Source of the DNA: a virus
DNA length: 64,000 bases
Virus record (IMG/VR): IMGVR_UViG_3300010965_000002
Span: 96,001-160,000 of that record
Reading direction: 5' to 3' (one strand)
Position 1 is the first letter of the stretch. The number at the start of each line of letters is the position of its first letter. Below are positions 1 to 57,857 of the stretch, one piece after another. The notes under the pieces were generated by a model. That model searched no databases and was not told where the DNA came from. It worked only from the letters and a program-made list of their open reading frames with translations. The translations under genes and the position numbers were made by a program.

Positions 1-414
1 AACGCTACGGCGTTAGGTGCTTATGAAGCACCTGCCAGTGAGTACACCAGTTATTCACACGCTGGTCCTTACATTCAAGATGGTCTGCTGCAAGTCCACC
101 GTAGTGGTGCCTTTGTAGTTCAGTATCTTACGTATGCAAACGGCCAAACGTATTCTCGCGTGAACAGCAACGTAACAGGCAGCGGCGTTTGGACAGCCTG
201 GACATTGTTAAGCGGTGGCGTGGTTGTAGGTACTCCAGTTGGTACTCCAGTTGGTACTCCAGTTGGAACGCCCGTAGGTACTCCAGTTGGTACTCCAGTT
301 GGTACTCCAGTTGGTACTCCAGTTGGAACGCCCGTAGGTACTCCCGTAGGTACTCCAGTTGGAACGCCCGTAGGTACTCCGGTAGGTACTCCAGTTGGTA
401 GTCCAGTGGGCTAA
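1..414 (+). CDS. Tail-fibre-like protein, 5'-truncated; knob-like domain followed by C-terminal (GTPV)14-GSPV-G tail
   Basis: Frame 1 is open from base 1 (NATALGAYE...), longer than the ORF-track call at 160. GLLQV..VVQYLTY.NGQTYSRV....WTAW resembles the pyocin/phage fibre knob pattern. A fibre chaperone-like gene follows. Confidence 0.65.
   Translation, partial: NATALGAYEAPASEYTSYSHAGPYIQDGLLQVHRSGAFVVQYLTYANGQTYSRVNSNVTGSGVWTAWTLLSGGVVVGTPVGTPVGTPVGTPVGTPVGTPVGTPVGTPVGTPVGTPVGTPVGTPVGTPVGTPVGSPVG
229..408 (+). repeat. 15 tandem 12-nt units coding G-T/S-P-V
   Basis: Units are ggtactccagtt (9x), ggaacgcccgta (3x), ggtactcccgta, ggtactccggta and ggtagtccagtg. Differences are synonymous except T>S in the last unit. 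Confidence 0.97.
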
Positions 415-428
415 TTAGGACAAATGTC

Positions 429-1025
429 ATGGCATATACTTTAATAGTAGAAAAAGAAGAGGCTCGGATTGTTTTCATTCGTGATGCAACCGCGCCTCTA
501 CTGCTCGACGCTTTGTGGCCGCCTGTTGGATATAACTATCTGCACTGGCCCTTTGCGGTGTCCGACGAAGTGCTAGCCGCGCCGTGGAACTACGTGATTC
601 AAGGCAACAAAATTGTTGCCTCGACTTATACCTTTCAAAGTAACGCTATCGAAAACGCAAAACGTGGTGGATTACTTGTACAGCTTGCGCGGGCAACTAA
701 TAGACATCGTCGCATGGTCTTGAAGGAAGATATACAAGGTCAAGCCGATGTGTATCGTCTGAAAGCAGACGAGGCTACACGCTTCTTAGCAGATACTCAA
801 CAAAGTCCAAGTGCATTTCCTTGGCTGTCTGAGACTGCGGCGTTTGAAAGCCTCACCCTTGAGCAATCCGCAAATCAGATAATGTTTCGACATACGCAGC
901 AGCAAGCAATCCTGCGGCATACTGAGAATCAACGTCGGTGGTTTACACGTCGTATCCTGACAGCGGGTGTTAACGAACTTGAAACAGTAAGAACAGAGTT
1001 GACAGACTATGAACGCAGAGGTTAA
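429..1025 (+). CDS. Tail fibre assembly/chaperone-like protein
   Basis: Lies directly after the fibre gene with an RBS. GQADVYRLKADEA..FPWLSETAAFESLTLEQSANQI pattern is typical of DUF4376-like fibre-associated proteins. Confidence 0.5.
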   Translation: MAYTLIVEKEEARIVFIRDATAPLLLDALWPPVGYNYLHWPFAVSDEVLAAPWNYVIQGNKIVASTYTFQSNAIENAKRGGLLVQLARATNRHRRMVLKEDIQGQADVYRLKADEATRFLADTQQSPSAFPWLSETAAFESLTLEQSANQIMFRHTQQQAILRHTENQRRWFTRRILTAGVNELETVRTELTDYERRG

Positions 1026-1698
1026 ACCTTCATGGTGGTATGGTGATGATAGTACCAAGCAAGTGCCTGGTCAATTAGTACCTGCCGATAATCCAGTGCC
1101 GTATTGGACAAGCCAATTACTGAATGAGTCAGAAGCAGATGCCATCTACCATGCAGTGATTGCCCAATATACCCGCAAACAATTGCATCGTGTGTACAAC
1201 CCAGATGGTCAAGGCGATCAAATCAATCTTGACAGTCGATACACGCATGCCTACGACTTCTACCAAGTTCCTGGTGCTGCGGACATTGAAGCCCGCTTCA
1301 ACGCGGAGGTCGCACGCTGTGCAAGAACGTGGTGGAACAAAGAATCTGTGCCTGTGTACACGCCGCAGATTCTGGGCTATGAAGAAAAATGTCGGTTCCG
1401 CACTCATTGTGACAACAGTATTTGGAATGACCAAGGCTGGACTCAGAATGACCCGATGCGAGACGTTACGGCCTTGCTGTACGTCAGTGATTGTGTGCCA
1501 ACGGTCACCCGGCCGAACCAGCACAGCGGAGGTGAGCTAGTGTTAGATAACGTACAAACGGCAAATGGCCCAGTACGTATAGCTCCCAAAAAAGGTCAGT
1601 TTGTGATGTTCCCGTCACATCCTGTTTACCGTCACCAAGTAACGCCAGTCACTCGCGGTTATCGTATCGCGTTTGTAAACTGGTGGAGCCTAAGGTAG
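1009..1698 (+). CDS. Fe(II)/2OG oxygenase, prolyl-4-hydroxylase-like
   Basis: HxD (RTHCD), DVTALLY, SGGEL, GQFVMFPS, distal H (YRHQV) and 2OG-binding R (YRIAF..W). Confidence 0.9.
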   Translation: MNAEVKPSWWYGDDSTKQVPGQLVPADNPVPYWTSQLLNESEADAIYHAVIAQYTRKQLHRVYNPDGQGDQINLDSRYTHAYDFYQVPGAADIEARFNAEVARCARTWWNKESVPVYTPQILGYEEKCRFRTHCDNSIWNDQGWTQNDPMRDVTALLYVSDCVPTVTRPNQHSGGELVLDNVQTANGPVRIAPKKGQFVMFPSHPVYRHQVTPVTRGYRIAFVNWWSLR

Positions 1699-1704
1699 AT
1701 CGAA

Positions 1705-2409
1705 ATGCTCAAACTAAAACCGCAATGGTCTTTACGTCAACGCTCTGATGGTAGCTGGTCCCTGACTAGCGAGAATTACCATCAGGCAGTTCTCCCCGAA
1801 TATGCCGCTATTCTCCAAAAGCTAGTTCCAGGTGTTGAACCAGACACTTTGACCGACGCTGAATTCGATCAGATTGAGTACCTCACTGATCGCGGCTTCC
1901 TGAATGTTGATAACCACCCCGATGCGCCAGCTTGGGAATTGTGTGGTGCCAACTTCCATTCTGTTCAGGAACAACTCAAGCACGTTACCTTCTTCGTTGT
2001 TGACACTACGCCTAACGGTGTCGGTGCAACAATCCGTGAGACTCTCTTAACTTCTGGTCTACAGGAACAAGAGATTGACCCACGTCTGACTATCGCAGTC
2101 AGTGATTCATACCAGACGTTACCAAATGTTAAGGGTAACATGCTGCCAGTTGTTTGCAACCGTATGCGCGTGACTGTCGGCCCAATGGTGTTTCCATGGG
2201 GTACGCACGTTCGTGACAGTGTACTTGCGTCAGATCATTATCTGCCACAGCCTGGATACCAATTGCCTCATGCCTTTGACCAACTGCAACGCGGTTGGCT
2301 GGCTGTTGCCATATTGCAATTCATAGGCACCAACAAACTACGCTATGTCAATTTCTTTGTTGAATACAACATGGCACAACAGGAGTTCAAGCTATGGCCT
2401 GCGAAATAA
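1705..2409 (+). CDS. TOMM-type RiPP leader-binding (RRE) / ocin-ThiF-like protein, no YcaO domain
   Basis: N-terminal beta-rich plus winged-helix segment (LKPQW...YAAILQKL...IEYLTDRGFL), then APAWELCG, LTIAVSDSY and VTVGPMVFP, matching the order of motifs in cyclodehydratase scaffold domains. The Zn cysteines are not evident. Confidence 0.6.
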   Translation: MLKLKPQWSLRQRSDGSWSLTSENYHQAVLPEYAAILQKLVPGVEPDTLTDAEFDQIEYLTDRGFLNVDNHPDAPAWELCGANFHSVQEQLKHVTFFVVDTTPNGVGATIRETLLTSGLQEQEIDPRLTIAVSDSYQTLPNVKGNMLPVVCNRMRVTVGPMVFPWGTHVRDSVLASDHYLPQPGYQLPHAFDQLQRGWLAVAILQFIGTNKLRYVNFFVEYNMAQQEFKLWPAK

Positions 2410-2825
2410 GACAGTGCAACGCCAGTGATGAACGGCAGCTACGCAGGTGGCTGTTAGTCCATGATCCTGTGTTTGCAATGCACCGCCAACTCAAGGACTA
2501 CTTTCTGGCACCTACTGAAAGTTTCGGTGTGCTCTGTACGTTTGTAGAGAACGAAATCAAGAGCGCCTGTTTCTTTTCAACGTATTCAAACAAGTCGTTT
2601 ATCCACCTTTACATTGGTGACGTATCTGATCTTGAAGCCTTTCGTCAGTACATGAAGTTTCCATGTCAAGCATTCTTGCGTCCTGAACACGCACCGGATG
2701 CAGCATCAGGTTGGAAAAATGTGTTGGACGTAACACCAGGCTTTATGGTAGATCATCCAGCGTACAACGGTGTGTTCTCGCGTGTTGCTCCTCGTTTCGC
2801 AGGCGCTGTCTACGAACATCCTTGA
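2394..2825 (+). CDS. GNAT-fold protein (divergent)
   Basis: EIRQCNASDERQLRRW N-terminus and a beta-strand core typical of acyltransferase folds; overlaps the previous gene. Confidence 0.4.
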   Translation: MACEIRQCNASDERQLRRWLLVHDPVFAMHRQLKDYFLAPTESFGVLCTFVENEIKSACFFSTYSNKSFIHLYIGDVSDLEAFRQYMKFPCQAFLRPEHAPDAASGWKNVLDVTPGFMVDHPAYNGVFSRVAPRFAGAVYEHP

Positions 2826-2834
2826 AAGACGGTC

Positions 2835-3374
2835 ATGAGTCAAATCATAAGACGATGTACGCCTGAAGACTGGCGTTCAATGGCACGCCTGCGAATGGCG
2901 AGAAACACTCATGCAGGCAGTCGCGTATCTGAGTTCACTTCCAATCCAATCTCCAGCGTAAGCACCCGCTACCAACACGACCCACACATGGCTATGGGCT
3001 GTTGGCAAGACGGTGTGATAGCGGCATACATCTGTGCTTATGCTGGCACAGATTACTGGGTACTTGATCTGATGATTTCAAGCGGCGACCCCAAGCAACT
3101 TCAAGCCTGCTTGGAACAGTTGTTGCAAGAGTTTGAAGCCAAGGGCACGTATCAGTTCTGGTATGCCTTTCCAGAGAAGTGGGCCAGAGCGTATCGTAGC
3201 TTCTGGAAGTCAGGCGCACCCAGCTTGCGCAAGTACACAATCGAAGACGTGGCTGTGATACCAGCCCGTAAGAAAGTTGATGACCCATTTATTTGGAACA
3301 ACATTCTGCACGAATGCGTGGTTCCAGTCCCATTGTTGTTAAGGAGAAGCTATGTTGCAGAAGTGGCTAAATAA
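2835..3374 (+). CDS. GNAT-fold acyltransferase-like protein
   Basis: IRRCTPEDW...AMGCWQDGVIAAYI...WVLDLMIS pattern. Confidence 0.55.
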   Translation: MSQIIRRCTPEDWRSMARLRMARNTHAGSRVSEFTSNPISSVSTRYQHDPHMAMGCWQDGVIAAYICAYAGTDYWVLDLMISSGDPKQLQACLEQLLQEFEAKGTYQFWYAFPEKWARAYRSFWKSGAPSLRKYTIEDVAVIPARKKVDDPFIWNNILHECVVPVPLLLRRSYVAEVAK

Positions 3375-4236
3375 GTTCAAAAACCCTCATATTCAGCATA
3401 TCCATGTACCAGCTCATGTGCTCGGTTTTTTGGCCCTGACGTATGCCCTAACTGCCCTATCTTGGTGGTCAATAGGGGGTTTTGTGCTATTCAATCTGTG
3501 GTTATCCTGTTTCGGAATGAGCATTGGATTCCACCGTTATTTCAGTCACCGTGCGTTCAAGGTCAATCGGTTCTGGCATCACGTAATGCTGTGGGGCGGA
3601 ACGTTTGCTGGACAAGGCTCGGTGGTGTTCTGGGTTGCGCTGCATCGTATCCACCATCCCAACAGTGATAAATCGGTAGCCGACATCCACAGTCCAAAGT
3701 TCAAGGGGTTTTGGAACGCATACATGGGTTGGATATTCACACTAGACCCTGCGGAAGTATCACTGGCTAAATCCACTGACATCATCCGGGACAAGTGGTG
3801 CCGATGGGAACACCGTAACTACGACAAGATCATGTGGACGTATTGGACGGTCCTTGTTGGTACGGCAATCGCAGTGCCCACATTACGACCATTCATTGCT
3901 GGTGCGTTAATAGCGGGTATGTGGAGTATTCATCAAGAGGCAATTATCAACAGCGTGTGCCACGACAGCCGATTCGGTGTGGCCCCGTATGAAGATCGTA
4001 CCCGCGATGGTAGTCGTAACGTACACAGTCTGCGCTACGTAACATGGGGTCAGAGTCTCCACAACACACATCATGCTTTTGCAGGCTCACCGAACTTCGG
4101 TACACCAGAAGCTCCTGATATTGGATACCGCATTATCCGATTGATTCAAACGGGCGAACATGCAGTGCATCAAGCTCACCAGACCCAGCAACGCACTACT
4201 GCTGAAAACGTCGTGCCGCCTTCGGTTGTTGCGTAA
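3352..4236 (+). CDS. Membrane acyl desaturase (delta-9-like) #1
   Basis: Three His boxes (HRYFSH, HRIHH, HNTHH) and hydrophobic TM segments. Confidence 0.93.
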   Translation: MLQKWLNKFKNPHIQHIHVPAHVLGFLALTYALTALSWWSIGGFVLFNLWLSCFGMSIGFHRYFSHRAFKVNRFWHHVMLWGGTFAGQGSVVFWVALHRIHHPNSDKSVADIHSPKFKGFWNAYMGWIFTLDPAEVSLAKSTDIIRDKWCRWEHRNYDKIMWTYWTVLVGTAIAVPTLRPFIAGALIAGMWSIHQEAIINSVCHDSRFGVAPYEDRTRDGSRNVHSLRYVTWGQSLHNTHHAFAGSPNFGTPEAPDIGYRIIRLIQTGEHAVHQAHQTQQRTTAENVVPPSVVA

Positions 4237-4264
4237 ACAATCACATCAAGTAAGGAAAGTCATC

Positions 4265-4465
4265 ATGACATTACGCGACATCTACAATCAGGTTGTGGCC
4301 GAAGACAATTCGCCAGCCCAATGTGAAAACCAGGCAATGGCTATTCGTCGTTATGCTGAACAAGAGTTGGGCGTGACAGACCCCGACAAGCTGCACCAGT
4401 TGTTCAACGAAACGTATGAACTGTTAAATGACGGCACGCCGTTCGACGAACAGCCTGCGGCTTAA
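4265..4465 (+). CDS. Small acidic helical protein (66 aa)
   Basis: ATG 4265 with AAGGA RBS; the ORF-track start at 4160 overlaps the desaturase. Confidence 0.7.
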   Translation: MTLRDIYNQVVAEDNSPAQCENQAMAIRRYAEQELGVTDPDKLHQLFNETYELLNDGTPFDEQPAA

Positions 4466-4489
4466 AAGCACTGCGTGCAAAGCAAGCCT

Positions 4490-5506
4490 ATGAAAACTAG
4501 GCTTGTTACTGGTAAGTGTAACGTCACACATAGTTGGCATCACATACCCAATAGTATTTATTTAGAAAGATCACCCATGGAACGCTTGTATCGTGGCTAT
4601 AACGGTGTGGCTGACGTACCCCGCACAGCAGTTGACCAAACATACGAATTTTGGTTCGATAAACCTCGTGACATCATCAGCTTAAGGGCAGCCAGCATTC
4701 GTGCTGCAAAGGAATTCGGGCAGAAGTACGCTGACAAAGAGATTGTCATTCTCTACTCAGGCGGCATGGACAGCGAATGGCTGTGTGAAGCCTTCTACTT
4801 AGCAAAGGTGCCATTTAGACCTTTGATCGTGGACTACAATAACGAGAACTCTCATGATCTGTATTGGGCTCGCCGCTACCTACGCCGTCGCGGTATTACC
4901 AACGCAATCGAATGGCAGTTCGACCTACGTAGCTGGTACTCCTCACAAGAGCAGTTTGAAATAGCTGAACGTTGCCAAATGAGTGAGCTTGCCTACAGCG
5001 GCCAGTTCCGGGCAATGTTGGAGTTTCAATCACCTGATCGCATCTTCTTGAATGGCTATGACGAGCCCGTGATTACCGCTGACGATAGTGGTGCGGAACG
5101 CACATGGAACTTGACCTACAACGAACGGCATTTCGCAATCCACAAGTTCATGGATGCCTATGGTTTTAACACACAGCCTGGTGGTTGGGTAGACGCCAAT
5201 GTGTTCGCTGCATATACGCACTGTCCTATGTGGCAGATGCTGGTTTCAAATCTTGTGCAACCTCAGGTGTGGAATTCCGAGCTAATCAAGTTCCAGATTT
5301 ATAGCCATTCCTTCCCATTCATGGAAGCGCGTACAAAGTACACGGGGTTTGAGTCCATGCTTGACGTGATCGTGCCTGCCACGAAGAAATGGCGCGAGTA
5401 CACGGACAAGACCTATGGAACGCAATGGCTGCAAGACTGGTCACGCCCCATCAAAGACGTGTGGGCTGAGTTACATGGAGACACACCATATGTACGACCT
5501 TACTAA
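4490..5506 (+). CDS. Stand-alone N-type ATP pyrophosphatase (Asn-synthetase/QueC-like adenylating enzyme) #1
   Basis: PP-loop ILYSGGMDSE and NGYDEP; no glutaminase domain. Confidence 0.75.
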   Translation: MKTRLVTGKCNVTHSWHHIPNSIYLERSPMERLYRGYNGVADVPRTAVDQTYEFWFDKPRDIISLRAASIRAAKEFGQKYADKEIVILYSGGMDSEWLCEAFYLAKVPFRPLIVDYNNENSHDLYWARRYLRRRGITNAIEWQFDLRSWYSSQEQFEIAERCQMSELAYSGQFRAMLEFQSPDRIFLNGYDEPVITADDSGAERTWNLTYNERHFAIHKFMDAYGFNTQPGGWVDANVFAAYTHCPMWQMLVSNLVQPQVWNSELIKFQIYSHSFPFMEARTKYTGFESMLDVIVPATKKWREYTDKTYGTQWLQDWSRPIKDVWAELHGDTPYVRPY

Positions 5507-6155
5507 GCTAGCAGCACTAGCGACTTTCCCTTGGGAGAGTGTGTATGAAGGATTAGCTAAGAGTCGCAAGACTATGACGACCTTCTATGGTGACGTACAC
5601 AGCACGAAGTTCACCCATACGCTTGACGCCCGCTGGAGTGACCGCGATCAATGGCGCTGGTACAACGCCTTAAAGCACGGTGTCAACGTAGCAGGCTTTA
5701 ATGTCAACGTTACTGCGTTGCCTGCTGAGTACATGCAGTTCGGCAAACACTGGTGGGCACGCTCACACGAACCAATCTGGGTGCCAACGGATAATGCCCG
5801 ACACTTTGGTGAGCTACGCCAGTGGATTAAAAACTCAGGCATATTCAAGCACACGGGTCGGCAAACATTCTTTGTACAAACAGCAGGTCAGTCAAGTCCA
5901 GAGCATGTAGACTTTGAGCCTGCTGACGTGCCAGAAAATCTGCGTGCTCCCGGTGAGTTCATCTGGCTTACACCACCAGACAGACCAAAGCATCTGAGTG
6001 TTAAAGGTGTTGCGGCTCCTTGGTGCTGCTGGTTTAACCACTTTGACCGCCACGGAACTGAGGCAGAGTCAGACACACGATGGAGCCTCCGAATTGACGG
6101 CGGCTTCACAGACGAATTCAAAGCATCCTTACCAACTTCTGAAAGTTTATCATGA
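5490..6155 (+). CDS. Fe(II)/2OG oxygenase (AspH-like cupin)
   Basis: HVD...RHG...RWSLR; ATG 5490 overlaps the upstream gene. Confidence 0.7.
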   Translation: MYDLTKLAALATFPWESVYEGLAKSRKTMTTFYGDVHSTKFTHTLDARWSDRDQWRWYNALKHGVNVAGFNVNVTALPAEYMQFGKHWWARSHEPIWVPTDNARHFGELRQWIKNSGIFKHTGRQTFFVQTAGQSSPEHVDFEPADVPENLRAPGEFIWLTPPDRPKHLSVKGVAAPWCCWFNHFDRHGTEAESDTRWSLRIDGGFTDEFKASLPTSESLS

Positions 6156-6784
6156 CATCACCCGTTTACTTCAACACTGCAAACCTTGAACTCGCCCAAA
6201 CCTTGCGCAAGCATTGGATGGCTATTCGTGACGAAGCCGAAGCCTTGTTTGCCGAAGAGGGTGAAGTGCCTAAAATCAATGCAACAATGGAAGGCCAAGA
6301 CGGTCGTTACATGGAATCTGTAGGCATTGCTAAATACACAGGCACCAATGCCAGCATCCATCTGCAAGTTGTGCCTGATCTGCTTGACCCGCCAGAAGCA
6401 CGTATCGCGTTGTCACCTGCTGGTGTGGCTGGCCGTTTGCGCCGCCAGAAGAAGTGCCCAATGACCATGGGCATTCTTGCGCCTTATGGTGAACACGTTG
6501 GCAACATTGGATTCAACCGCTTACATCCAGGTGCCAAGATCAACCCGCACTATGGTGTCATCACCTCTAATCGTTTTGTGCGTATCCATTTAGGCTTGCG
6601 TACTGACCCTGGTGCTACGTTCTTTGCCAAAGACAACGATAGCTACACCTGGAAAGACGGTGAGACAATGGCCTTTGACGATGCAACCGTGTTGCACTGG
6701 GTCGAACACAAAGGTCAAAGCTCACGTTTGATTCTGTGTTTGGACATTGCCAAGGCTGCGTTTCCTGATCTGCAGGCACTGTAA
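6152..6784 (+). CDS. Aspartyl/asparaginyl beta-hydroxylase family oxygenase
   Basis: RLHPGAKINPHYG..RIHLGL..W..GETMAFDD..LHWVEH..RLILCLD canonical AspH pattern. Confidence 0.92.
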   Translation: MTSPVYFNTANLELAQTLRKHWMAIRDEAEALFAEEGEVPKINATMEGQDGRYMESVGIAKYTGTNASIHLQVVPDLLDPPEARIALSPAGVAGRLRRQKKCPMTMGILAPYGEHVGNIGFNRLHPGAKINPHYGVITSNRFVRIHLGLRTDPGATFFAKDNDSYTWKDGETMAFDDATVLHWVEHKGQSSRLILCLDIAKAAFPDLQAL

Positions 6785-6808
6785 AGCCCAGCTAGATAGG
6801 CTGGCTAA

Positions 6809-6817
6809 CTGTAAATA
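6809..6817 (+). promoter_or_regulatory. CTGTAAATA candidate phage promoter inside the enzyme cluster
   Basis: Sits in the 71-nt intergenic gap (the largest in the cluster), 39 nt before the SDR start; the same motif recurs in other intergenic gaps. Confidence 0.55.
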
Positions 6818-6855
6818 CCTATAGTAGTCAGTCTATTTAATTTTTAGAGGTTCGT

Positions 6856-7458
6856 ATGAAAAGAGCTTTGTTGGTCAGCTTAGACAGTGATCTAGGCAAG
6901 CACATGAAACGTGTGCTGGAGGAGGAGGGTTACGAAGTAACTGCTACTTCCAGACATGGTTTGCCGGATACCCTTCATTTTGATTTAGGCGTAACCGACG
7001 TACCTAAGTTTGAAGCTGCCTCGTTTGATGTATTGATCTACAACCTTGGTGTCAGCCAAGTTAACAGATCGCGTGTCGAGGTGATACGCACAAACGCGAT
7101 ACTGGCCTGTGATGCACTTCAAGCCTTGGCCCCTACGCTGAAAGCGGCAGGTCATGTCATTGTGTTTTCCAGTGGTTGGGGCAGCATACGTCAAACTGTG
7201 CGTTCAGGCGAAGCCACAGAAATCACGTACCGTATGAGTAAGGCCGCTTTGAACATGGGTGTCGCTGTATTGTCTAATGCGTTCACTAAACTGAATTGGA
7301 TTTTGATGCAGCCCGGGTTCATCACGACCAAGATGAATACCAATCCTAAGAACTTGCCATCGGCTGACCCGTATGCTGCGATGCAGGGTGTGCTCAAACA
7401 TTCACTGGCTTGCAAAGAGAGGTACGCATACATTGACTACATGGGCAATGCTCAATGA
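6856..7458 (+). CDS. Short-chain dehydrogenase/reductase (CsgA-like) #1
   Basis: YRMSKAALNM catalytic YxxxK, FSSGWGSI, QPGFITTKM; degenerate Gly-rich loop. Confidence 0.85.
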   Translation: MKRALLVSLDSDLGKHMKRVLEEEGYEVTATSRHGLPDTLHFDLGVTDVPKFEAASFDVLIYNLGVSQVNRSRVEVIRTNAILACDALQALAPTLKAAGHVIVFSSGWGSIRQTVRSGEATEITYRMSKAALNMGVAVLSNAFTKLNWILMQPGFITTKMNTNPKNLPSADPYAAMQGVLKHSLACKERYAYIDYMGNAQ

Positions 7459-8009
7459 TTACCGACAAGCTCACGCCTGTTAGTGGCACGGTATCAATCG
7501 AAGCCTACATAAAGACACGCTTTATGCTAGAGCTACAGAACCTTTGGATACTGACGTGCATTGACGAATCCCGGTTTACCGTGTTACGTGCCCAGCCATT
7601 CAGAGCCAATGAGCCGAAAAGAAAAGGCATAGAGCAGTTCTGGACTGTGTTGCACCATGCAAGAACAGTGCTAAAGCTATTCGACGTTGAGGTCAATGAT
7701 CTGAAACAGTATGCGAACAGGCCTAAGTTGTATTTAGAAGTGCTGTACACAAAAGTCGAAGGTATAAAGGAAGAGACGATTGCAGCCTACCTGTATAAAG
7801 AAAAATTCATGTTGACGGATACTTCGTTGCATGAGTCTAGTACCTTACGGAAAGGGCGTGTCGTCGATTTACTTCTCTGGTTCTCCTTTCCAAGTCTGAG
7901 TTTTCACAAAGGGTTTGTGTATGAAACGTTGAAGACTGCAGGCGTCGATGTTGGTAAAGCTGACATACTGAGACCTCTACAACCGCCAATTATTCAAGTA
8001 AATATCTAA
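7455..8009 (+). CDS. Hypothetical protein
   Basis: ATGA-coupled ORF within the operon; no recognisable motif. Confidence 0.6.
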   Translation: MITDKLTPVSGTVSIEAYIKTRFMLELQNLWILTCIDESRFTVLRAQPFRANEPKRKGIEQFWTVLHHARTVLKLFDVEVNDLKQYANRPKLYLEVLYTKVEGIKEETIAAYLYKEKFMLTDTSLHESSTLRKGRVVDLLLWFSFPSLSFHKGFVYETLKTAGVDVGKADILRPLQPPIIQVNI

Positions 8010-8020
8010 GGAGTCCTATC

Positions 8021-8824: not shown

Positions 8825-8839
8825 TATAAGGACTACATC

Positions 8840-9415: not shown

Positions 9416-9429
9416 TCAAAGGTACTACG

Positions 9430-10853: not shown

Positions 10854-10855
10854 AT

Positions 10856-14845: not shown

Positions 14846-14849
14846 CATT

Positions 14850-15440: not shown

Positions 15441-16029
15441 GGTCTTCATCATAGGCTGCAAGTCCGGTTTTGGCAAGGAGCTTCTGGCGCATTGCCAAAC
15501 AGAATGCCTCGCACAAGGCGTATCCCGTGAAGACTTCAATCTCTTTGATCTTGCCAGCGTAAAACGCCTAGGTGAACGCATCATTGGAGAACTACCTGAC
15601 GTTGTGGTTTTTAATTCTTATGCGCGAACGGTAGACAAAGAGCATGTGGCCTATGCGCAGTTAGAAGCCCTAAAAGTTCTGTGGCCTATGCTAAAGCCTC
15701 TTGATTTGACTGTGGTTGTGGTAGGCTCAGCTATAGCGTGGGAACAACCAAACGGAGGCAACGCTACGCTGCTGTATCAACGAAGCAAGAAAGATTTGGC
15801 TGCCTATTGTCTAAAGAATGGTTGGTTGGACATCACCAATCCTCAACACAAGGCACGCATGGTGTTGTTTGAACCCGCTACGATGACCAATCGACCGGAA
15901 TACGCCAAAGCACGACGCACTCCTCTGTTAAGCGTTGAAAGCAGTTGGGCATTGATGCGAGGTGCAATAGCCAGCAAGCTACCGTTTGTACGTGTTGGTG
16001 CTCAAGGAGGAACGCATGTTGTTATCTAA
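15424..16029 (+). CDS. Atypical SDR #3
   Basis: FIIGCKSGFG Rossmann loop, VVVVGSA, YQRSK. Confidence 0.65.
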   Translation: MNASSKVFIIGCKSGFGKELLAHCQTECLAQGVSREDFNLFDLASVKRLGERIIGELPDVVVFNSYARTVDKEHVAYAQLEALKVLWPMLKPLDLTVVVVGSAIAWEQPNGGNATLLYQRSKKDLAAYCLKNGWLDITNPQHKARMVLFEPATMTNRPEYAKARRTPLLSVESSWALMRGAIASKLPFVRVGAQGGTHVVI

Positions 16030-16837
16030 CAAGACGGCTGTTATCACAGGCTGCGGTGTTACAGCTACTGGCGCAGGACTTGGCGCACAATACGCGCTGG
16101 CGCTTGCAAGAGAAGGCGCGAACGTTGTTCTGACCGACGTTGACATGAAACGGTTGGAGCCTACGATTGAACAGTTCAAGCGCGAAGGCTTAGGCTATAG
16201 ATATATCGTGCTTGATCTGCTAGAAGCCTCTGGTGCTAAAGACCTAATGGCATTTGCGTATAGGGTCTTTGGTTCTGTTGACATCCTTGTGAACAATGCA
16301 GGCGTCGTACCAAACACGCTGAGGGAGACTAAAGCCAAGTTTGATATGTATCAACGCCGACGCACAGGCGTAGCCACTCAACCTTTGTCGTTGCTTGACA
16401 TAACAGACAACGAGTGGAATAGTTTTTGGGAACTTAACGTTCATGCGTCCTTTCGTTGTCTAAGGGCTGCGTGTAACTACATGGCAGAACAGAAAAGCGG
16501 CAGGATTATCAACATCGCTAGCGTGTCAGCCTTCAGCAACAGCGGTGGCTTTAGTCCAGGTTACGCTGCCAGCAAGGCAGCCGTCCACTCGTTAACGATT
16601 AGCGTAGCAGAAGAATGTGCAAGGCACGGCATTCTGGTTAATACCTTTGCGCCTAGTGGTGTCATAGACACGACTTGGTTGAACAAGCCGCTTGCCGAAC
16701 GTGAACGCTTAGAAAGTAGCATACCTATTGGTCGTCAAGCGACCTACGAGGACTACACCAAAGTAATCGTTATGCTTTCAGGCACGCACTATTTTGTTGG
16801 TCAACTTATTTCTCCTAATGGAGGCTTGGTAACATAA
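16016..16837 (+). CDS. Classical SDR (FabG-like) #4
   Basis: AAGGAGG RBS; TAVITG..GAGLG, DILVNNAG, GRIINIAS, YAASK, PIGR. Confidence 0.92.
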   Translation: MLLSNKTAVITGCGVTATGAGLGAQYALALAREGANVVLTDVDMKRLEPTIEQFKREGLGYRYIVLDLLEASGAKDLMAFAYRVFGSVDILVNNAGVVPNTLRETKAKFDMYQRRRTGVATQPLSLLDITDNEWNSFWELNVHASFRCLRAACNYMAEQKSGRIINIASVSAFSNSGGFSPGYAASKAAVHSLTISVAEECARHGILVNTFAPSGVIDTTWLNKPLAERERLESSIPIGRQATYEDYTKVIVMLSGTHYFVGQLISPNGGLVT

Positions 16838-17457
16838 TGGACTACCCTTTTCTGGTCGCGCCGATTGCGCGAGTATCTGCTGACTTAGTTGCACGTCTTG
16901 CTGACGCTGCCCAAGAGCTTCAATACGATGCTTTCCCTTCGCTTCAAACTCTGTTGCACACAGACTATCACCCACATACCGAAGCGTTCAAAGCCGCGTG
17001 TATGGAATTGCATCGTCACTTGGGTTTGTTTACTGATGACCAGATCGTAAGGTTTACCGTAACCAAACTTCGTCCTGGCCACGTTGCCGCAGAACACAGT
17101 GATTTCTACGTTCAGAAAGGCGCGCCTAACAACTTAGCGATCATCAATAACCAGCACAAGATTCATGTGCCTTTGATTACCAACCCTTTGGCACATTCGT
17201 TGCATCGGCGCACACAGTTGCTACCACACACTGCGTATCATATGCCTACGGGCTATGCTTATGCGTACAACGATGTAGCCTGGCACAAGATCGTCAACGC
17301 TGGTGCTGAAAACCGCTATCACTTGATTGTGTTTTATAAGGACCCCACGCAAACGGTTAAACGTCGAATAATGGATGCCTTGTCGATTGATTATCACAAC
17401 TTCTACGAAGACCTCAGTTACAAGTACCCATTTGAACATCATGTAGTGCGGGATTAA
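16837..17457 (+). CDS. AspH-like oxygenase, MxYPF paralog 4
   Basis: MDYPF start; EHSD, HKIHVPL, GYAYAYND..WHKI, RYHLI. Confidence 0.85.
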   Translation: MDYPFLVAPIARVSADLVARLADAAQELQYDAFPSLQTLLHTDYHPHTEAFKAACMELHRHLGLFTDDQIVRFTVTKLRPGHVAAEHSDFYVQKGAPNNLAIINNQHKIHVPLITNPLAHSLHRRTQLLPHTAYHMPTGYAYAYNDVAWHKIVNAGAENRYHLIVFYKDPTQTVKRRIMDALSIDYHNFYEDLSYKYPFEHHVVRD

Positions 17458-17514
17458 GCAGATGGGGTCAGCGAATTTTTGCTTAACGGTGGACTTGTTA
17501 TAAAAGGACTCTCA

Positions 17515-18366
17515 ATGGTTAGCTTCGGACAAAGAGCCTTACACTCGTGGGTCGATGTTGTAAATAAACGTACTGGTGGTAGACAACCAAAACTTGCGAC
17601 GCCTAATGAGACAGTAGCGGGCATAGTTGCTCACCAAAGCGTGCGCAGGTTTGAAAAGCGCACGGTTAGCAGGGAACTGCTTGAGCTACTGGTGTTGGCT
17701 GCACAGTCTGCTCCTACGAGTGCTAACCTACAGTGTTGGAGTGTTGTGGTTGTGACCGACCCTAAGCTCAAAGCTAAATTTCTGGTAGCAGGCAACAACA
17801 ACACGACCATAGAGCAAGCGCCTTGTTATATGGTCTGGTTAGCAGACTTGACCCACGTAGCCACCATTTTAGGTGATGACGTAGAGGGCTTAGATCATTT
17901 AGAAACGTTCTTGGTGAGCAGCATAGACGCGGCCCTAGCGGCCCAGTCGTTTTCCATAGCGGCACAGTCTATGGGCTTAGGCACCGTGTTTCATGGTTCT
18001 ATACGGTACAAACCTGAAATTGCTATAGAAGCCTTGTCCTTGCCTAAGCACACGTTTCCAGTATTCGCTATGGCAGTAGGTTGGCCTAGTAAAGAGCTTG
18101 TGGTGCATTGGAATCACCCGGATGAAATAAAACCGCGTATGCCTCAGCATATGGTTCTGCACTATAACAAGTATGAGCCTAGAAAGTTGAGTCAGTTGTT
18201 AGATTATGACAAGGTAGTTGACGACTTCCACAGGGACAATGTAATCTCGCCTGAAATCTATCCAGCATTAAAGCCGTGGAGGTCCAGTGCCGTAGAACGT
18301 TTCACTTTGATGTTGAACAGAAAACTTGAGGCTATGATTAAGACCATGGGCTTTGGAACACTTTGA
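17515..18366 (+). CDS. FMN-dependent nitroreductase (NfsA/Frp-like)
   Basis: HQSVRRF, AQSAPTSANLQCWSVVVV, SIDAALAAQ, GLGTVFHGSIR, KPRMP. Confidence 0.92.
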   Translation: MVSFGQRALHSWVDVVNKRTGGRQPKLATPNETVAGIVAHQSVRRFEKRTVSRELLELLVLAAQSAPTSANLQCWSVVVVTDPKLKAKFLVAGNNNTTIEQAPCYMVWLADLTHVATILGDDVEGLDHLETFLVSSIDAALAAQSFSIAAQSMGLGTVFHGSIRYKPEIAIEALSLPKHTFPVFAMAVGWPSKELVVHWNHPDEIKPRMPQHMVLHYNKYEPRKLSQLLDYDKVVDDFHRDNVISPEIYPALKPWRSSAVERFTLMLNRKLEAMIKTMGFGTL

Positions 18367-18376
18367 AAGCGCAAGC

Positions 18377-18799
18377 ATGAAAATACAAAATGAGTTACTT
18401 GAAGGCAGCGCCGCTTTACCCGCTTTCTTGCGTGCGTATGCCGAACTACTCGACCTCGGTTGGGGGCGACCATTCACAGTCCACAATGAAAAACACAAGG
18501 TGTGTTACGCCAAAAGCGACAGTGGCAACGTTATGGGCGGTATTGTCTACGGAATGAATCCACTGACCAAGCTAGGCTGGATAGTGTTTTCCTTCACCGT
18601 ACCTGAGTTTCGACGGCAAGGCGTTTATACAAGACTCCATAGAGAAGTCGAGTTGTTGATGACCCGTGGAGGTATGACAGACTTGGCTTCACATGTCCAT
18701 GTAGACAATGAGGCTCAGATTAAAAGCTGCGAACGTGTAGGTAAGAAGCCTGAGTATTACCGTATGCACAAGAGTCTGAGGCAAACCGACGAAGCCTAA
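18377..18799 (+). CDS. GNAT acetyltransferase
   Basis: FTVPEFRRQGVY AcCoA motif; HVHVDNEAQ. Confidence 0.85.
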   Translation: MKIQNELLEGSAALPAFLRAYAELLDLGWGRPFTVHNEKHKVCYAKSDSGNVMGGIVYGMNPLTKLGWIVFSFTVPEFRRQGVYTRLHREVELLMTRGGMTDLASHVHVDNEAQIKSCERVGKKPEYYRMHKSLRQTDEA

Positions 18800-18824
18800 C
18801 CAATTTTGATTACTAACGAGGTAT

Positions 18825-19646
18825 ATGATGGACATCAATGAATTCAAAGACCGTTATGAACGGGACGGGGCCGTTTGGCCCATTAGCATTTTCTCTGCCG
18901 AAGAAATTGCTGGATACAAGCTCAAGCTCGATCAGGCGGTGGCCGACCTCGATTTGATGAACAGCGACTACCGTTGCAAGTCTCAGGTGTTGTTTCCGTG
19001 GGTGGCAGAGATTGCCAAGTCACCTAAGCTGACGCCATATCTGACGGCCTTGCTCGGTGACAGCTACCATTGCTGGGATACGTTGTTCTGGATTAAGCAA
19101 CCGGGCGATAACAAGCGCGTGAGCTTTCACCAAGACGGTACGTACTGGAACTTTGAACCTGAAAAAGGTCTGACCGTGTGGCTTTCGTTTGACGGTTCAA
19201 CCGCAGACAAGGGTGCTATTCAGTACGTCACTCAGCCTTACGTAAAGACCATTCGCAAGCATACTGACCGCAAAAGCAATGACAACCTGTTGATGCGTGG
19301 TCAGACACTCGACCGCAATCAGGAAGAAGTTGAGCACACCTGTATTGCCGAAGTGCCTGCTGGAAGCATCGCCATGCACAGTCCTTTCATCATGCACGGC
19401 TCTGTGCCAAACATGACAGATAACACACGGGCTGCGTGTGGCTTCTTGTTTGTCAAAGGTGATGCCAAGCCGCGTGAAGCGTATTCACCTGAGTCTACGC
19501 TGTGGATACACGGTGATGTACCTCCACATTTCATGCTGGACCCAGCACCAACTGGCGATTGGGAACTCGACAAGAGTGCGTGGCAAGCGGCCTATGATCG
19601 ACAACACGCAAACTACTACAAAATGAGGGAAGTAAATGCTGAATAA
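18825..19646 (+). CDS. Phytanoyl-CoA dioxygenase (PhyH) family oxygenase
   Basis: YERDG, FWIKQPG..SFHQDGTYW, LTVW, HSP..MHGS.PN, RAA. Confidence 0.93.
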   Translation: MMDINEFKDRYERDGAVWPISIFSAEEIAGYKLKLDQAVADLDLMNSDYRCKSQVLFPWVAEIAKSPKLTPYLTALLGDSYHCWDTLFWIKQPGDNKRVSFHQDGTYWNFEPEKGLTVWLSFDGSTADKGAIQYVTQPYVKTIRKHTDRKSNDNLLMRGQTLDRNQEEVEHTCIAEVPAGSIAMHSPFIMHGSVPNMTDNTRAACGFLFVKGDAKPREAYSPESTLWIHGDVPPHFMLDPAPTGDWELDKSAWQAAYDRQHANYYKMREVNAE

Positions 19647-20181
19647 ACTACACGCCTTCGTCTTTGGCGACTGGCGCGATAAGTCCACAGCGGTTGCAGG
19701 TACATTCGATGCTCCAGGTGTGTACGTGATGGCTGCCCGAGCACATGGCTTAAAAGGCTTGCTTGGTGGTCGTCACAGCTACATCGTTCACGTAAGCGGT
19801 GGGGGTGAACACACGGTGTTTGAAATAACCGACCGTGAGACATTGGGTTATCAAGGCGCTACAGAGTTCAAGAGCTACAAAACCAATCCAGGGTTCGACG
19901 AACCTGTGCTGTACCGTGTGCTGCGTAATGGCTATCAGGAATGGTTCGGTGCGCAGCCTTATGTTGTGTACCACACGCAAGTATGGCCTGAGCTTGTAGA
20001 CTTGGACGCGCTGTTTGAACTGTACCCGCACAAGAACGATCAGTTCAAGTTGTTCTACCTGAATTGCAACACGTTTGTTTCTTGGGGTGTCTATCTGGCA
20101 CGCATGATGGGGATTGACGCTTGCTTCCCTAAGACGTTTGGCACCAAGTCCGATGCTTATTGGGAGAAGTTCTATGTATGA
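19636..20181 (+). CDS. Permuted papain-like (PPPDE/DUF3750-like) protein
   Basis: HSYIV followed by Y....Y..F..NCNTFV gives a His...Cys dyad order. Confidence 0.55.
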   Translation: MLNKLHAFVFGDWRDKSTAVAGTFDAPGVYVMAARAHGLKGLLGGRHSYIVHVSGGGEHTVFEITDRETLGYQGATEFKSYKTNPGFDEPVLYRVLRNGYQEWFGAQPYVVYHTQVWPELVDLDALFELYPHKNDQFKLFYLNCNTFVSWGVYLARMMGIDACFPKTFGTKSDAYWEKFYV

Positions 20182-20572
20182 GTTTTCAATGACGTTCACC
20201 CGTAAAGATACGGCGGTGGAGTGGCCTATGACTATTGAGGACGATAATATCACGCAATTGTACGCTAGCCGACAGCGTGCCTTGCTGAGTTCTGTTGGCG
20301 TGGTGGGTGTGTTCACCAGTTTCACACCTGATGGTATGACAGCCAGAACGGTGACGGTATGGGAATCGACGGTAGCTTCGTCTCAGTTTCAATATGCAGA
20401 CAGAGAGGCGTTTATAGCTGCAATCAGTAAATACTGCAAGGACAATGACGTTAGCTTGGTAACGAATGCCGACTTTGTTCCTGACACAGAAGCCCTCAAG
20501 ATCAAGAAATTGGCTAACCGCTTGTCGCCAAGTGCAGCAGGTTTGGAACTGGCAAAGGTACTAGAACAATGA
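20174..20572 (+). CDS. Hypothetical protein
   Basis: Coupled ORF (ATG 20174) filling the operon. Confidence 0.55.
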   Translation: MYEFSMTFTRKDTAVEWPMTIEDDNITQLYASRQRALLSSVGVVGVFTSFTPDGMTARTVTVWESTVASSQFQYADREAFIAAISKYCKDNDVSLVTNADFVPDTEALKIKKLANRLSPSAAGLELAKVLEQ

Positions 20573-21804
20573 ACACGCTAGCGCATCGCATAAAAGAGTT
20601 GCTACCTCAAGGGTTTGCAACAATGTCAACCATTGATGCTGTGTCTGCGTCTAATGCCTTCATCTATGACAGTGAAGGCCGTCGGTACATCGACTTTGCA
20701 AGCTCCTCTTCGGCTATGAATCTGGGTCACCGTCATCCAGAAGTTGTCGAGGCCATGCAAGACCAGTTGGACAAATTTGTTCACACCTTCTTTCAGCAAG
20801 TGCCGTACAGCAGCTATCTGGATTTGGTTGAGGTGCTGCATCGTATTACACCTGGCGAGTTCCGCAAGAAGACAGTGCTGAATTCCACAGGCTGTGAAGC
20901 CGTTGAAACGGCTGTGCGTATTGCCAAGGCACATACCAAACGGCAGACCGTGTTGTGCTTCACAGGTTCGTTTCACGGTCGTAGCTTGCTAGGTTCTGCG
21001 CTGTCAAACAATGCAGGTACAGCCCTACACGATCTGAACAACATCGTGTGCGCCCCATTCGTGTCAATGGATGACGAGCCTTTCGATGCAATCGCGTATG
21101 CAAAGCAGTTGGCGAACCTAGTGCCGCTGGACAAGATAGCTGCGATCATCATTGAACCCGTGCAAGGCGAATCTGGTTTCAACGTGGTGCAGAAACCCTT
21201 CTTGGATTGGCTGCGTTGCCTTGCCACAAACAACGGTACAGTCCTAATCGTTGATGAAGTGCAATCAGGATTGGCGCGTACAGGTACCATGTTTGCCTTA
21301 GATCAGTATTACGTGGAGCCTGACATCATCTTGGTGTCGAAGACATTGGGTGGCGGCTTGCCGTTGTCAGCCGTTGTAGGCCGCGCAGAAATTATGGATG
21401 CGCCCACTACGTTTGGCGGTACATTCAGCGGTACACCTTTGGCAGTTGCGGCGGCATTACGCGTTATTGAGGTCATCGAGACTCAGCAAGTGTGCCGTAC
21501 CTCACAGACGTTGGGTGTACTGTGCATGAGCAGACTGCAGGACTTCGCCAAGTACCCTTTCGTCAAAAAGATGCGCGGCTTAGGCTCAATGCTGTCGTTG
21601 GAAATCGACGTGGAGAATTATCCTCAGTTGACGACCACCATACAACGTCGGGCACGCGACAACGGCTTGCTGTTGCTGAGTGCAGGTATCAACAAGTCGC
21701 GCATTCGGTTCCTGTATCCGCTGACGATTGAAAAATCGGTGCTAGACGAAGGACTGACCATACTCGACAACGTATTCAAGGAACTTGCGAATGAACTACG
21801 GTAA
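20569..21804 (+). CDS. Class III PLP aminotransferase (GabT/4-aminobutyrate aminotransferase-like)
   Basis: YIDFAS, STGCEAVETAV, FTGSFHGRS, IIEPVQGESG, DEVQSGLARTG, SKTLGGGLP. Confidence 0.93.
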   Translation: MNTLAHRIKELLPQGFATMSTIDAVSASNAFIYDSEGRRYIDFASSSSAMNLGHRHPEVVEAMQDQLDKFVHTFFQQVPYSSYLDLVEVLHRITPGEFRKKTVLNSTGCEAVETAVRIAKAHTKRQTVLCFTGSFHGRSLLGSALSNNAGTALHDLNNIVCAPFVSMDDEPFDAIAYAKQLANLVPLDKIAAIIIEPVQGESGFNVVQKPFLDWLRCLATNNGTVLIVDEVQSGLARTGTMFALDQYYVEPDIILVSKTLGGGLPLSAVVGRAEIMDAPTTFGGTFSGTPLAVAAALRVIEVIETQQVCRTSQTLGVLCMSRLQDFAKYPFVKKMRGLGSMLSLEIDVENYPQLTTTIQRRARDNGLLLLSAGINKSRIRFLYPLTIEKSVLDEGLTILDNVFKELANELR

Positions 21805-22801
21805 GTATAGCCTTGACGACCACTACCGTTGGGGCTTTGGTGATTCTTGGTTCAACATGCCAGAGAATCCACGGGATTGCTTTCGAGTGTCTCTGGGTTC
21901 GTGCAAACGTGGACCTCTGTCGCTGCGTGAAGAATGCGTTATTGCTGCAAAGCAGTTGTCTGAAACGATTACCAAGCCTCTGTTGGTGGGACTATCCGGT
22001 GGCTTTGACAGTCAGGTGGTGTGTCTCTCTTTCATGGCGGCTGGCGTACCGTTCACACCTGTGGTGCTGCGCTTAACCAGCGATAGCGGGGCGTTTTACA
22101 ACCAGACTGACTACGCTAACGCCATGAAGTTCTGTAGCCTCAAAGGCATTGTGCCTTTGGTGGAGACACTGAACCTGGACGAGTTCTATCGTGGTGAAGG
22201 TCTGCGGCTCATTCAGGACAACTGCATCACGGTGGCTGAGATAGCTGTGCAACTGCACTTGGTAATCAAGTACAAGGACACTCATGCGTATGTCAACGGA
22301 GGCGGTGACCCTACGCTCTCGTTCATGAATGGCAAGCTGGTGTACTCGCTTATGCCTACTCCGATTCAACAGTACATGATTAACAACGGCATCGAAGGAT
22401 GTCTCAAGTTTTTCATGTATTCGCCTGAACAGATAGCGGCGTATCTGCAACATCCTGTGATGCAGATGTACAACGCGGGCTGCGAGACACTACACGACGG
22501 CTACAAAGGTCCAAACATCTTTACGTTCGTGGTCAAGCCCATGATGTACTTGAACCAGTGGCCGGAGTTGGTGCAGCGAAAGAAACAGACAGGCTTTGAG
22601 CAAGTTCCCTACTTTGCAAAAATGCGGGAGCTTACATTTAGCTTGAACGAGCACATAAATCCAAGGGCGAAGAAGATCACTTGGACCTATGAGCAATTAG
22701 TTGACCACCTAATGAATGGTCAAGGCGCGATTAAAACATGGAGAAGTGTTGATGAACACGATACATCTGGACCCTACCCTAGCGTATTCACAAGCGTTTA
22801 A
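21785..22801 (+). CDS. Stand-alone N-type ATP pyrophosphatase #2
   Basis: VGLSGGFDSQ PP-loop and NGGGDP; paralog of 4490. Confidence 0.75.
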   Translation: MRMNYGKYSLDDHYRWGFGDSWFNMPENPRDCFRVSLGSCKRGPLSLREECVIAAKQLSETITKPLLVGLSGGFDSQVVCLSFMAAGVPFTPVVLRLTSDSGAFYNQTDYANAMKFCSLKGIVPLVETLNLDEFYRGEGLRLIQDNCITVAEIAVQLHLVIKYKDTHAYVNGGGDPTLSFMNGKLVYSLMPTPIQQYMINNGIEGCLKFFMYSPEQIAAYLQHPVMQMYNAGCETLHDGYKGPNIFTFVVKPMMYLNQWPELVQRKKQTGFEQVPYFAKMRELTFSLNEHINPRAKKITWTYEQLVDHLMNGQGAIKTWRSVDEHDTSGPYPSVFTSV

Positions 22802-23162
22802 CTTTGTGATGCGTGAGTGGGTCAGAATGCTTGAAGCAGGTACCGCGAGCCAAGAACTTTGCTTTAGCAATGCAACCTCAGTGGTGTATGCTAAAGATGA
22901 CCAAGACAAGGTTGTTGGTGCCATCCTGTTTTCAGTGGATGACACGAAACGTCAAGGCTGGATTTATCTGGCTATGGTTGACGCTGACAGACGCAAGCAG
23001 CATCTGTATCAGGACATGTATGCGTTGGTTGAACAGGAATGCAAACGCAGAGGTGCCGTTACCCTGTCGTCGAATGTGCATGTGTCCAACACACCAATGC
23101 TTAACGCGTTGAAGAAGAATGGGCGTGAAGCTCAGTGGTTGAAGACGACCAAAGCCCTGTGA
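22752..23162 (+). CDS. GNAT acetyltransferase
   Basis: VDADRRKQHLY, NVHVSNTPM; paralog of 18377. Confidence 0.85.
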   Translation: MNTIHLDPTLAYSQAFNFVMREWVRMLEAGTASQELCFSNATSVVYAKDDQDKVVGAILFSVDDTKRQGWIYLAMVDADRRKQHLYQDMYALVEQECKRRGAVTLSSNVHVSNTPMLNALKKNGREAQWLKTTKAL

Positions 23163-23170
23163 CACAAAAT

Positions 23171-57855: not shown

Positions 57856-57857
57856 CC

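What the first reader, a model, noticed from the sequence alone, without database searches (positions are those of the whole stretch)
1..23162. Phage fibre with a (GTPV)15 tail sits at the head of a ~22-kb, 31-gene tailoring-enzyme array: candidate RiPP-like virion-decoration system
Seen: a fibre-like ORF ending in 15 G-T/S-P-V units and its chaperone are followed, on the same strand with mostly overlapping or abutting start/stop codons, by 11 Fe(II)/2OG oxygenases, a TOMM-type leader-binding protein, 2 desaturases, 2 adenylating PP-loop enzymes, 4 GNATs, 4 SDRs, a B12 radical SAM, a nitroreductase, an aminotransferase and a papain-like protein. A terminator closes the array at 23171. No NRPS/PKS, transporter or DNA-binding domain is present. 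Established: these enzyme families tailor peptides and acyl groups in RiPP and lipopeptide pathways, and some large phages carry multiple 2OG oxygenases near fibre genes. Inference: the repeat is a structural-protein-fused 'core peptide' that is hydroxylated, methylated and acylated, giving a chemically armoured or adhesive fibre tip. I know of no characterised system of this design, but could not search.
Basis: partly seen in the sequence, partly recalled or inferred. Interest (0 to 1): 0.92.

Follow-up and report, generated by a model that had tools for sequence, protein, structure and literature searches.

The report
Phage enzyme kit for tagged tails
A large uncultured phage puts the same proline-rich tag on the ends of three unrelated tail-region proteins and, directly behind them, encodes a peptide-recognition protein with hydroxylating, ligating and desaturating enzymes; tag and enzymes travel together in ten phages, so these viruses probably decorate their particles chemically in a way I found no paper describing.

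Summary
The array is real: 33 co-oriented genes follow the repeat ORF and end at a strong terminator. Upstream of the window, two more unrelated tail-region proteins end in the same repeat and the same last five residues, GSPVG. In 9 other phages a repeat-tailed gene sits directly before the same chaperone-oxygenase-RRE trio. Units and carrier proteins differ, yet all 17 tagged proteins found end in G-[S/T/G]-P-[V/I]-G. The RRE/E1-like fold (LynD/TruD, E 2e-11) and the AsnB-type ligase fold (Z 14.8) were confirmed on models; no YcaO was found. Only a 7-gene core tracks the tag. The middle genes vary, and the distal PhyH-to-GNAT block is a separate module, often far from tail genes. Best reading (0.6): the core modifies the tag on virion proteins (proline hydroxylation, ATP-dependent attachment of an acyl or amine group) and variable enzymes tailor that group. 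No modification or binding is shown. Exceptions: one phage has only internal Ser/Thr-Pro repeats; one lacks the oxygenase and has another shared ending. I found no paper on it. The scan noted analogous but different cassettes (radical SAM with Asn-Cys or CHxS tails) in other phages; this cassette was noted only on this genome.

The parts
1..414 (+). 3' part of the 169-aa tagged tail-region protein (starts at genome 95905). Tag at 234-414, ending GSPVG-stop. Two more tagged proteins lie upstream of the window: genome 83265-84158 (297 aa) and 93855-94247 (130 aa).
429..1025 (+). Core: DUF4376/tail-assembly-like helical protein ('chap'). Homologues also sit beside AsnB-like ligases away from tail genes.
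1009..1698 (+). Core: P4H/PKHD-type Fe/2OG oxygenase (PF13640), candidate prolyl hydroxylase; substrate not shown
1705..2409 (+). Core: stand-alone RRE + degenerate E1/ThiF scaffold (no GxGxxG, no CxxC)
2394..2825 (+).
2835..3374 (+). Core: conserved protein B, possibly GNAT-like; fold unconfirmed
3352..4236 (+). Core: membrane di-iron fatty-acid desaturase 1 (His boxes intact)
4265..4465 (+). 66-aa protein, 72-80% identical in two relatives; function unknown
4475..5506 (+). Core: PP-loop ligase 1 (SGGxDS and RxKxTGFE intact; likely start 4577), paralogue of ligase 2
5415..17457 (+). Variable middle block: oxygenases at 5415, 6152, 8840, 9430 (TauD), 10314, 12978, 13617, 14763, 16837; degenerate oxygenase fold 12427; SDRs 6856, 14249, 15424, 15986; desaturase 2 at 8021; radical SAM 10856; unknown 7455
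17479..18799 (+). NfsA-like nitroreductase and GNAT
18825..23162 (+). Distal, independently mobile module: PhyH-type oxygenase, DUF3750, unknown 20114, GabT-like aminotransferase, PP-loop ligase 2 (AsnB/beta-lactam synthetase fold), GNAT
23170..23211 (+). Intrinsic terminator hairpin with A-run before and U-run after, facing a convergent gene

Best explanation
A phage-encoded, RRE-guided system that modifies virion proteins after translation. SHOWN: several unrelated tail-region proteins carry a Pro/Val/Gly/Ser/Thr repeat ending G-x-P-[V/I]-G; a 7-gene core (chap, P4H-type oxygenase, RRE-E1 scaffold, AsnB-type ligase, proteins A and B, desaturase) is inherited with the tag across different tail modules; the folds and catalytic motifs are intact. 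INFERRED: (1) the RRE-E1 protein binds the tag, since the carriers share no other sequence; (2) the oxygenase hydroxylates tag prolines, Pro being the one residue in every repeat variant; (3) the ligase adenylates a carboxylate, most simply the conserved C-terminal Gly, and forms an amide with an amine- or acyl-bearing small group; (4) the desaturase and the variable Asp-hydroxylase-family, SDR, radical-SAM and carbamoyltransferase genes build and diversify that group; (5) the tag stays on the particle and changes host-surface contact or shielding. The distal module is a second ligase unit that may or may not act on the same substrate.
For: Three unrelated G000 proteins share the tag and terminus, with synonymous codon variation between units. 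Tagged gene directly before chap-P4H-RRE in L006, L007, L049, L050, L052, L053, L076, L078, L080. All 17 tagged proteins end G-[S/T/G]-P-[V/I]-G, against 1 of 2132 ORFs in the other fetched loci, itself an antisense frame. The tag moves between carriers: on the PF12571 protein in L078 and on the 536-aa orthologue in L080, both untagged in G000. L053 has an unrelated virion module but the same order and ending. Within a phage, different proteins share one repeat unit. The locus with no P4H (L079) has no Pro tag, and two of its structural genes share another ending in Gly. Cultured phages with the same fibre-head domain show neither tag nor cassette in the 25-31 kb read. RRE model's top matches are all RiPP RRE-E1 proteins: LynD/TruD, MccB, McbB, PaaA. 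Ligase fold closest to AsnB and beta-lactam synthetase, Z 14.8 and 14.4 against 9.2 or less for other PP-loop families. Wastewater relatives keep bases 1-4461 and diverge after.
Against: No modification, binding or virion location is shown; the carriers are called structural from position and one PHROG hit. L011/L012 keep RRE, ligase, A, B and desaturase, and their ligase nests among the tagged ones, yet no PVG-ending gene was found in records that are 37% and 29% complete; they show only internal Ser/Thr-Pro repeats, so C-terminal Gly chemistry may not be universal. The oxygenase's closest solved relatives are PKHD/PiuC proteins, not proven prolyl hydroxylases. Desaturases and Asp-hydroxylase-family enzymes (LpxO, OlsC; own knowledge) usually act on lipids. 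Most tagged phages are related, so the 10 loci are not 10 independent events.
Confidence: 0.6

Rival explanations
1. The tag is a structural linker, at most proline-hydroxylated by the adjacent oxygenase. The other enzymes make a free metabolite or remodel host envelope lipids (lipid A, ornithine lipids), as proposed for enzyme-rich host-recognition islands, and are linked to the tail operon only by late expression.
For: Desaturases, SDRs and many Asp-hydroxylase-family genes fit acyl chemistry. The distal module occurs without tags beside replication or recombination genes in many phages. Internal Pro-rich repeats in L011 and L053 sit at linker positions. PMC7029224 proposes host-surface modification for such islands.
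Against: Does not explain an RRE-E1 protein in every core, the invariant last five residues on unrelated carriers, or the switch of ending when enzyme content switches in L079.
Confidence: 0.18
2. The tag is a true RiPP core: it is modified, cut off by a protease and released as a peptide that acts on the host or on competitors; the carrier works as a leader.
For: RRE-E1 plus AsnB-like enzyme recalls lasso and microcin pathways. L053 has a short ORF that is little more than the tag. DUF3750 has His and Asn-Cys-Asn motifs.
Against: Carriers share no leader. DUF3750 belongs to the distal module and was not seen in the parts of the other tagged loci that were fetched. The same units occur inside fibres. 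No transporter.
Confidence: 0.1
3. The array modifies DNA or tRNA bases (PP-loop enzymes, 2OG oxygenases, GNATs, aminotransferase).
For: Weak QueC-like PHROG hit for ligase 1; weak tRNA-methyltransferase HUP-domain hit for ligase 2.
Against: The fold is AsnB-like, with QueC, TilS and MnmA far lower (Z 7.3-8.7). No TET/JBP, nucleotide kinase or pyrophosphorylase family hit among the genes scanned. Membrane desaturases and an RRE do not fit. The link is to tail genes.
Confidence: 0.04

Closest known systems
RRE-E1 proteins of RiPP pathways (LynD/TruD heterocyclases, McbB, MccB, PaaA)
   Same: Fold and domain order; best Foldseek matches, E 2e-11 to 2e-6
   Different: Stand-alone 234 aa, no YcaO in the record, no ATP or Zn motifs; the putative substrate is a tag fused to unrelated large proteins with no leader
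Lasso-peptide logic (RRE + AsnB-like cyclase) and AsnB-family amide ligases (beta-lactam synthetase, TsnB9)
   Same: RRE gene next to a glutaminase-less AsnB-type adenylating enzyme in most loci
   Different: The tag has no Asp/Glu acceptor and no free N-terminus for a macrolactam; no lasso B2 protease seen
PBCV-1 prolyl 4-hydroxylase (Chlorella virus; PMC3634087)
   Same: Viral 2OG oxygenase acting on proline-rich repeats
   Different: Single enzyme of an algal virus; no RRE, ligase or desaturase; the phage enzyme's activity is untested
Mycobacteriophage virion glycosylation (Freeman et al. 2023, doi 10.1016/j.chom.2023.05.028; seen only as a reference in PMC12619734)
   Same: Phage-encoded enzymes decorating virion proteins
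   Different: Glycosyltransferases; no RiPP-type recognition or portable repeat tag. Paper not held, details from own knowledge
Host recognition cluster of pelagimyophages (PMC7029224)
   Same: Variable enzyme-rich island among tail genes of large myophages
   Different: Mostly glycosyltransferases; no tag or RRE in the passages read; interpreted as host-surface modification
Phage-borne biosynthetic clusters (bioRxiv 10.1101/2020.10.01.322628)
   Same: RiPP-type genes in phage genomes
   Different: 99.3% bacteriocins, mostly in temperate phages, rarely over 10 kb; products are released peptides

Membership tests
TOMM / linear azol(in)e peptides | RRE-E1 (C-protein) domain | tested here: met
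TOMM / linear azol(in)e peptides | YcaO cyclodehydratase | tested here: not met
   No PF02624 match in G000, controls rang; none in the array; the record is 72% complete
Microcin C / pantocin-type adenylating ThiF | Active E1 site (GxGxxG, Zn-binding CxxC) | tested here: not met
   Motifs absent
Lasso peptides | AsnB-like ATP-dependent enzyme with an RRE | tested here: met
Lasso peptides | Core with Asp/Glu acceptor after leader removal; B2 protease | tested here: not met
   No Asp or Glu in any of 17 tags; no protease in the core
RiPPs in general | Precursor with a conserved leader distinct from the core | tested here: not met
   Carriers are unrelated proteins of 119-614 aa that share only the tag
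RiPPs in general | RRE binds the precursor | not tested
   The complex-prediction machine was unreachable on six tries
RiPPs in general | Modified residues and proteolytic release | not testable with these tools
   Needs mass spectrometry
Prolyl 4-hydroxylases | PF13640 fold with HxD...H...R motif | tested here: met
Prolyl 4-hydroxylases | Peptidyl-proline as substrate | tested here: inconclusive
   Co-occurs with Pro tags and is absent from L079, but closest solved relatives are PKHD/PiuC
GNAT acyltransferases (genes 2394 and 2835) | GNAT profile or fold match | tested here: inconclusive
Phage DNA hypermodification clusters | Nucleotide- or DNA-acting hallmark enzymes in the cluster | tested here: inconclusive
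   None among Pfam, NCBIfam or PHROG hits; several genes remain unassigned

The most novel reading that the evidence does not exclude
Phages have a portable, genetically encoded tag that directs an RRE scaffold and an AsnB-type ligase to attach a phage-built, strain-variable lipid-like or amine-bearing group to any virion protein carrying it. The variable oxygenase, SDR and radical-SAM genes would then set host range or shielding by changing the chemistry rather than the protein sequence.
Probability: 0.35. Interest if true: 0.93.

Novelty: categorically new. Interest (0 to 1): 0.82.

Why it matters
Large aquatic phages often carry banks of 2OG oxygenases, desaturases and GNATs with no known substrate. 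Here a candidate substrate is exposed by comparative genomics: a short tag with an invariant end that moves between proteins and travels with a defined 7-gene core. That makes the question testable with a tagged reporter in E. coli. If true, it extends RiPP-type recognition to virion proteins, adds a chemical layer to phage-host recognition, and offers a portable tag for enzymatic protein labelling.

Tried and rejected
Single-sequence and profile scans of IMG/VR, JGI metagenomes and GTDB for RRE, ligase 1 and the 287-aa tail gene gave little: L011/L012 and one short contig; no bacterial genome hit for ligase 1. Two DNA-pattern scans of IMG/VR for the tag ending returned only antisense or out-of-frame matches, so the converse test (tag implies cassette) got no independent cases. 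Cultured phages have no ligase 2 match and only weak oxygenase matches. RRE-tag complex prediction: machine unreachable six times, no verdict. Trees of RRE, ligase 1 and oxygenase are mostly unresolved; I draw no donor or order of events from them. RNA-library contigs from wastewater cover relatives' core genes but cannot show transcription. The promoter/terminator scan was at chance level and missed the real hairpin. Ten literature searches found no description; most subscription papers are not held. Rejected: TOMM (no YcaO), lasso (no acceptor residue), treating all 33 genes as one pathway (distal module is independent), and 'chap' as a plain fibre chaperone (absent after the homologous fibre heads of cultured relatives, present beside ligases elsewhere).
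Full report
Setting. The window is bases 96001-160000 of a 176,943-bp linear virus record, 72% complete by CheckV. Upstream lies a myovirus tail and baseplate operon. The 287-aa tail gene matches fibre heads of Ralstonia phage phiRSL1, Achromobacter phage Motura and Burkholderia and Xanthomonas phages at 27-36% identity, so a proteobacterial host is likely (inference). Near relatives occur in wastewater runs.

Observation. The repeat is 14 GTPV units, one GSPV and a final Gly. Its ORF starts 95 bp before the window and has 169 aa. Thirty-three co-oriented ORFs follow with gaps of -92 to +71 bp, and a hairpin at 23170-23211 closes them (-26.6 kcal/mol, z -6.8). Family searches support 11 Fe/2OG oxygenases, 2 desaturases, 3 SDRs, 2 GNATs, a radical SAM enzyme nearest to B12-dependent families, an NfsA-like nitroreductase and a GabT-like aminotransferase. 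Two further 'GNATs' (2394, 2835) and one SDR could not be confirmed.

Folds. The model of gene 1705 (pLDDT 84) matches LynD/TruD heterocyclases (E 2e-11), then MccB, McbB and PaaA; the Atlas gives TM 0.76 to TOMM leader-binding proteins. It lacks ATP and Zn motifs, and no YcaO was found in the record. It looks like a non-catalytic peptide-binding scaffold. The model of gene 21785 (pLDDT 93) is closest to asparagine synthetase B and beta-lactam synthetase (Z 14.8 and 14.4, rmsd about 4 A, 251-262 residues), well above NAD synthetase, QueC and TilS. Gene 4475 is its paralogue (HHalign 100%). Both keep the PP-loop and the C-terminal Arg-x-Lys motif. Such enzymes adenylate a carboxylate and form an amide (established knowledge).

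Two more tail-region ORFs upstream (genome 83265-84158 and 93855-94247) have unrelated N-termini but the same kind of repeat and the same last five residues. Codons vary synonymously between units, which points to selection on the peptide.

Comparative test. I fetched loci through homologues of the RRE protein. In nine other phages a repeat-tailed gene lies directly before chap, oxygenase and RRE (translations). The units differ (VGSPAP, VPVGS, TVGTPVG, GGPVV, SPV, SPSPTP), and so do the lengths. All 17 tagged proteins, including two orthologues found by protein search, end in G-[S/T/G]-P-[V/I]-G; 1 of 2132 ORFs in the other fetched loci does, in an antisense frame. The tag is portable: in L078 it is on the PF12571 protein and in L080 on the orthologue of the 536-aa protein, both untagged in this genome. 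L053 has an unrelated virion module and a truncated RRE, yet keeps order and ending. Three cultured phages with the same fibre head show neither tag nor cassette in the regions read. Most tagged phages are related, so these are fewer than ten independent events.

Exceptions. L011/L012 keep RRE, ligase 1, proteins A and B and the desaturase right behind a fibre with internal Ser/Thr-Pro repeats, with no PVG-ending gene in incomplete records. L079, with the most distant RRE, has no P4H-type oxygenase and no Pro tag; two of its structural genes share a different ending in Gly-Gly-Gly, and the cluster holds a sulfotransferase and three radical SAM enzymes. That ending resembles a common fibre motif (own knowledge), so it is one suggestive case, not proof of co-variation.

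Three layers. A core of chap, oxygenase, RRE, ligase 1, proteins A and B and desaturase 1 is present in all tagged loci except the decayed L053. The middle block varies in Asp-hydroxylase-family copies, SDRs, radical SAM and carbamoyltransferase genes; wastewater relatives match bases 1-4461 and then diverge. The distal block (PhyH, DUF3750, aminotransferase, ligase 2, GNAT) occurs in about 20 other phage loci, often beside replication or recombination genes and without a tag. The array is therefore a composite.

Mechanism. Most likely (0.6) the core modifies the tag while it stays on virion proteins. The RRE binds the tag, because the carriers share nothing else. The oxygenase hydroxylates prolines, the only residue in every repeat variant; a viral precedent is PBCV-1 P4H (PMC3634087). 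Ligase 1 activates a carboxylate, most simply the terminal Gly, and attaches a small group. The desaturase and the variable enzymes build that group, since a four-residue aliphatic unit cannot occupy 11 oxygenases. All of these steps are inferred. Rivals: lipid or metabolite tailoring with a merely structural tag (0.18), a released peptide (0.10), nucleic-acid modification (0.04).

Known systems and novelty. It works like an RRE-dependent RiPP pathway but fails membership of TOMMs (no YcaO), microcin C-type (inactive E1), lasso peptides (no acceptor residue) and RiPPs in the strict sense (no leader). Known phage biosynthetic clusters are almost all bacteriocins. Known virion decoration is glycosylation (reference only). 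Ten searches found no description of this cassette. Earlier notes of this scan report analogous radical-SAM cassettes with Asn-Cys or CHxS tails in other phages; they are unchecked leads with different enzymes and tags. This cassette was noted only on this genome.

Verdict. Observation confirmed with corrections; interpretation partly supported and sharpened. A real, undescribed tag-plus-enzyme cassette with a clear experimental test. Interest 0.82.

Noticed in passing
L003:4479-6992, L013:3610-5518, L014-L019, L025, L079:17148-18796: A chap homologue next to a 340-410 aa protein recurs beside ligase 2 homologues in T4-like and other large phages, away from tail genes; chap may be a ligase partner rather than a fibre chaperone.
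   Followed up: partly
window 18825-23162 and L003-L005, L008-L027: The PhyH-DUF3750-(aminotransferase)-ligase-GNAT module is widespread in uncultured large phages with no visible substrate gene; it deserves its own study.
   Followed up: partly
L079:5011-20723: Variant cassette (RRE, ligase, sulfotransferase, three radical SAM, three GNAT) with two structural genes sharing a 27-residue ending in Gly-Gly-Gly, and a gp38-like adhesin nearby.
   Followed up: partly
L053:8004-10462: Decaying cassette: truncated RRE and a probably frameshifted short tag ORF; the fibre at 6469-7638 has about 22 internal SPV units of the same kind.
   Followed up: partly
window 4265-4465: 66-aa protein far more conserved (72-80%) than its neighbours, with a conserved Ser-Pro and Cys; possible carrier protein, no family match.
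   Followed up: no
window 12427-12981: Oxygenase-fold protein without metal ligands, next to the radical SAM gene here and in L007 and L076.
   Followed up: partly
L010:87-398 (minus strand): 103-aa ORF next to the tail sheath gene ending in an Ala-Pro/Ser-Pro repeat, about 9 kb from PhyH and ligase 2.
   Followed up: no
window 57166-61962: Separate locus with a cytosine methyltransferase-like gene, a CmoA-like gene and another PP-loop gene, as noted by first readers; probably DNA modification, not checked.
   Followed up: no
window 23310-24339 (minus strand): M15-type peptidase-like and chitinase-like lysis genes converge on the terminator (read from sequence only).
   Followed up: no
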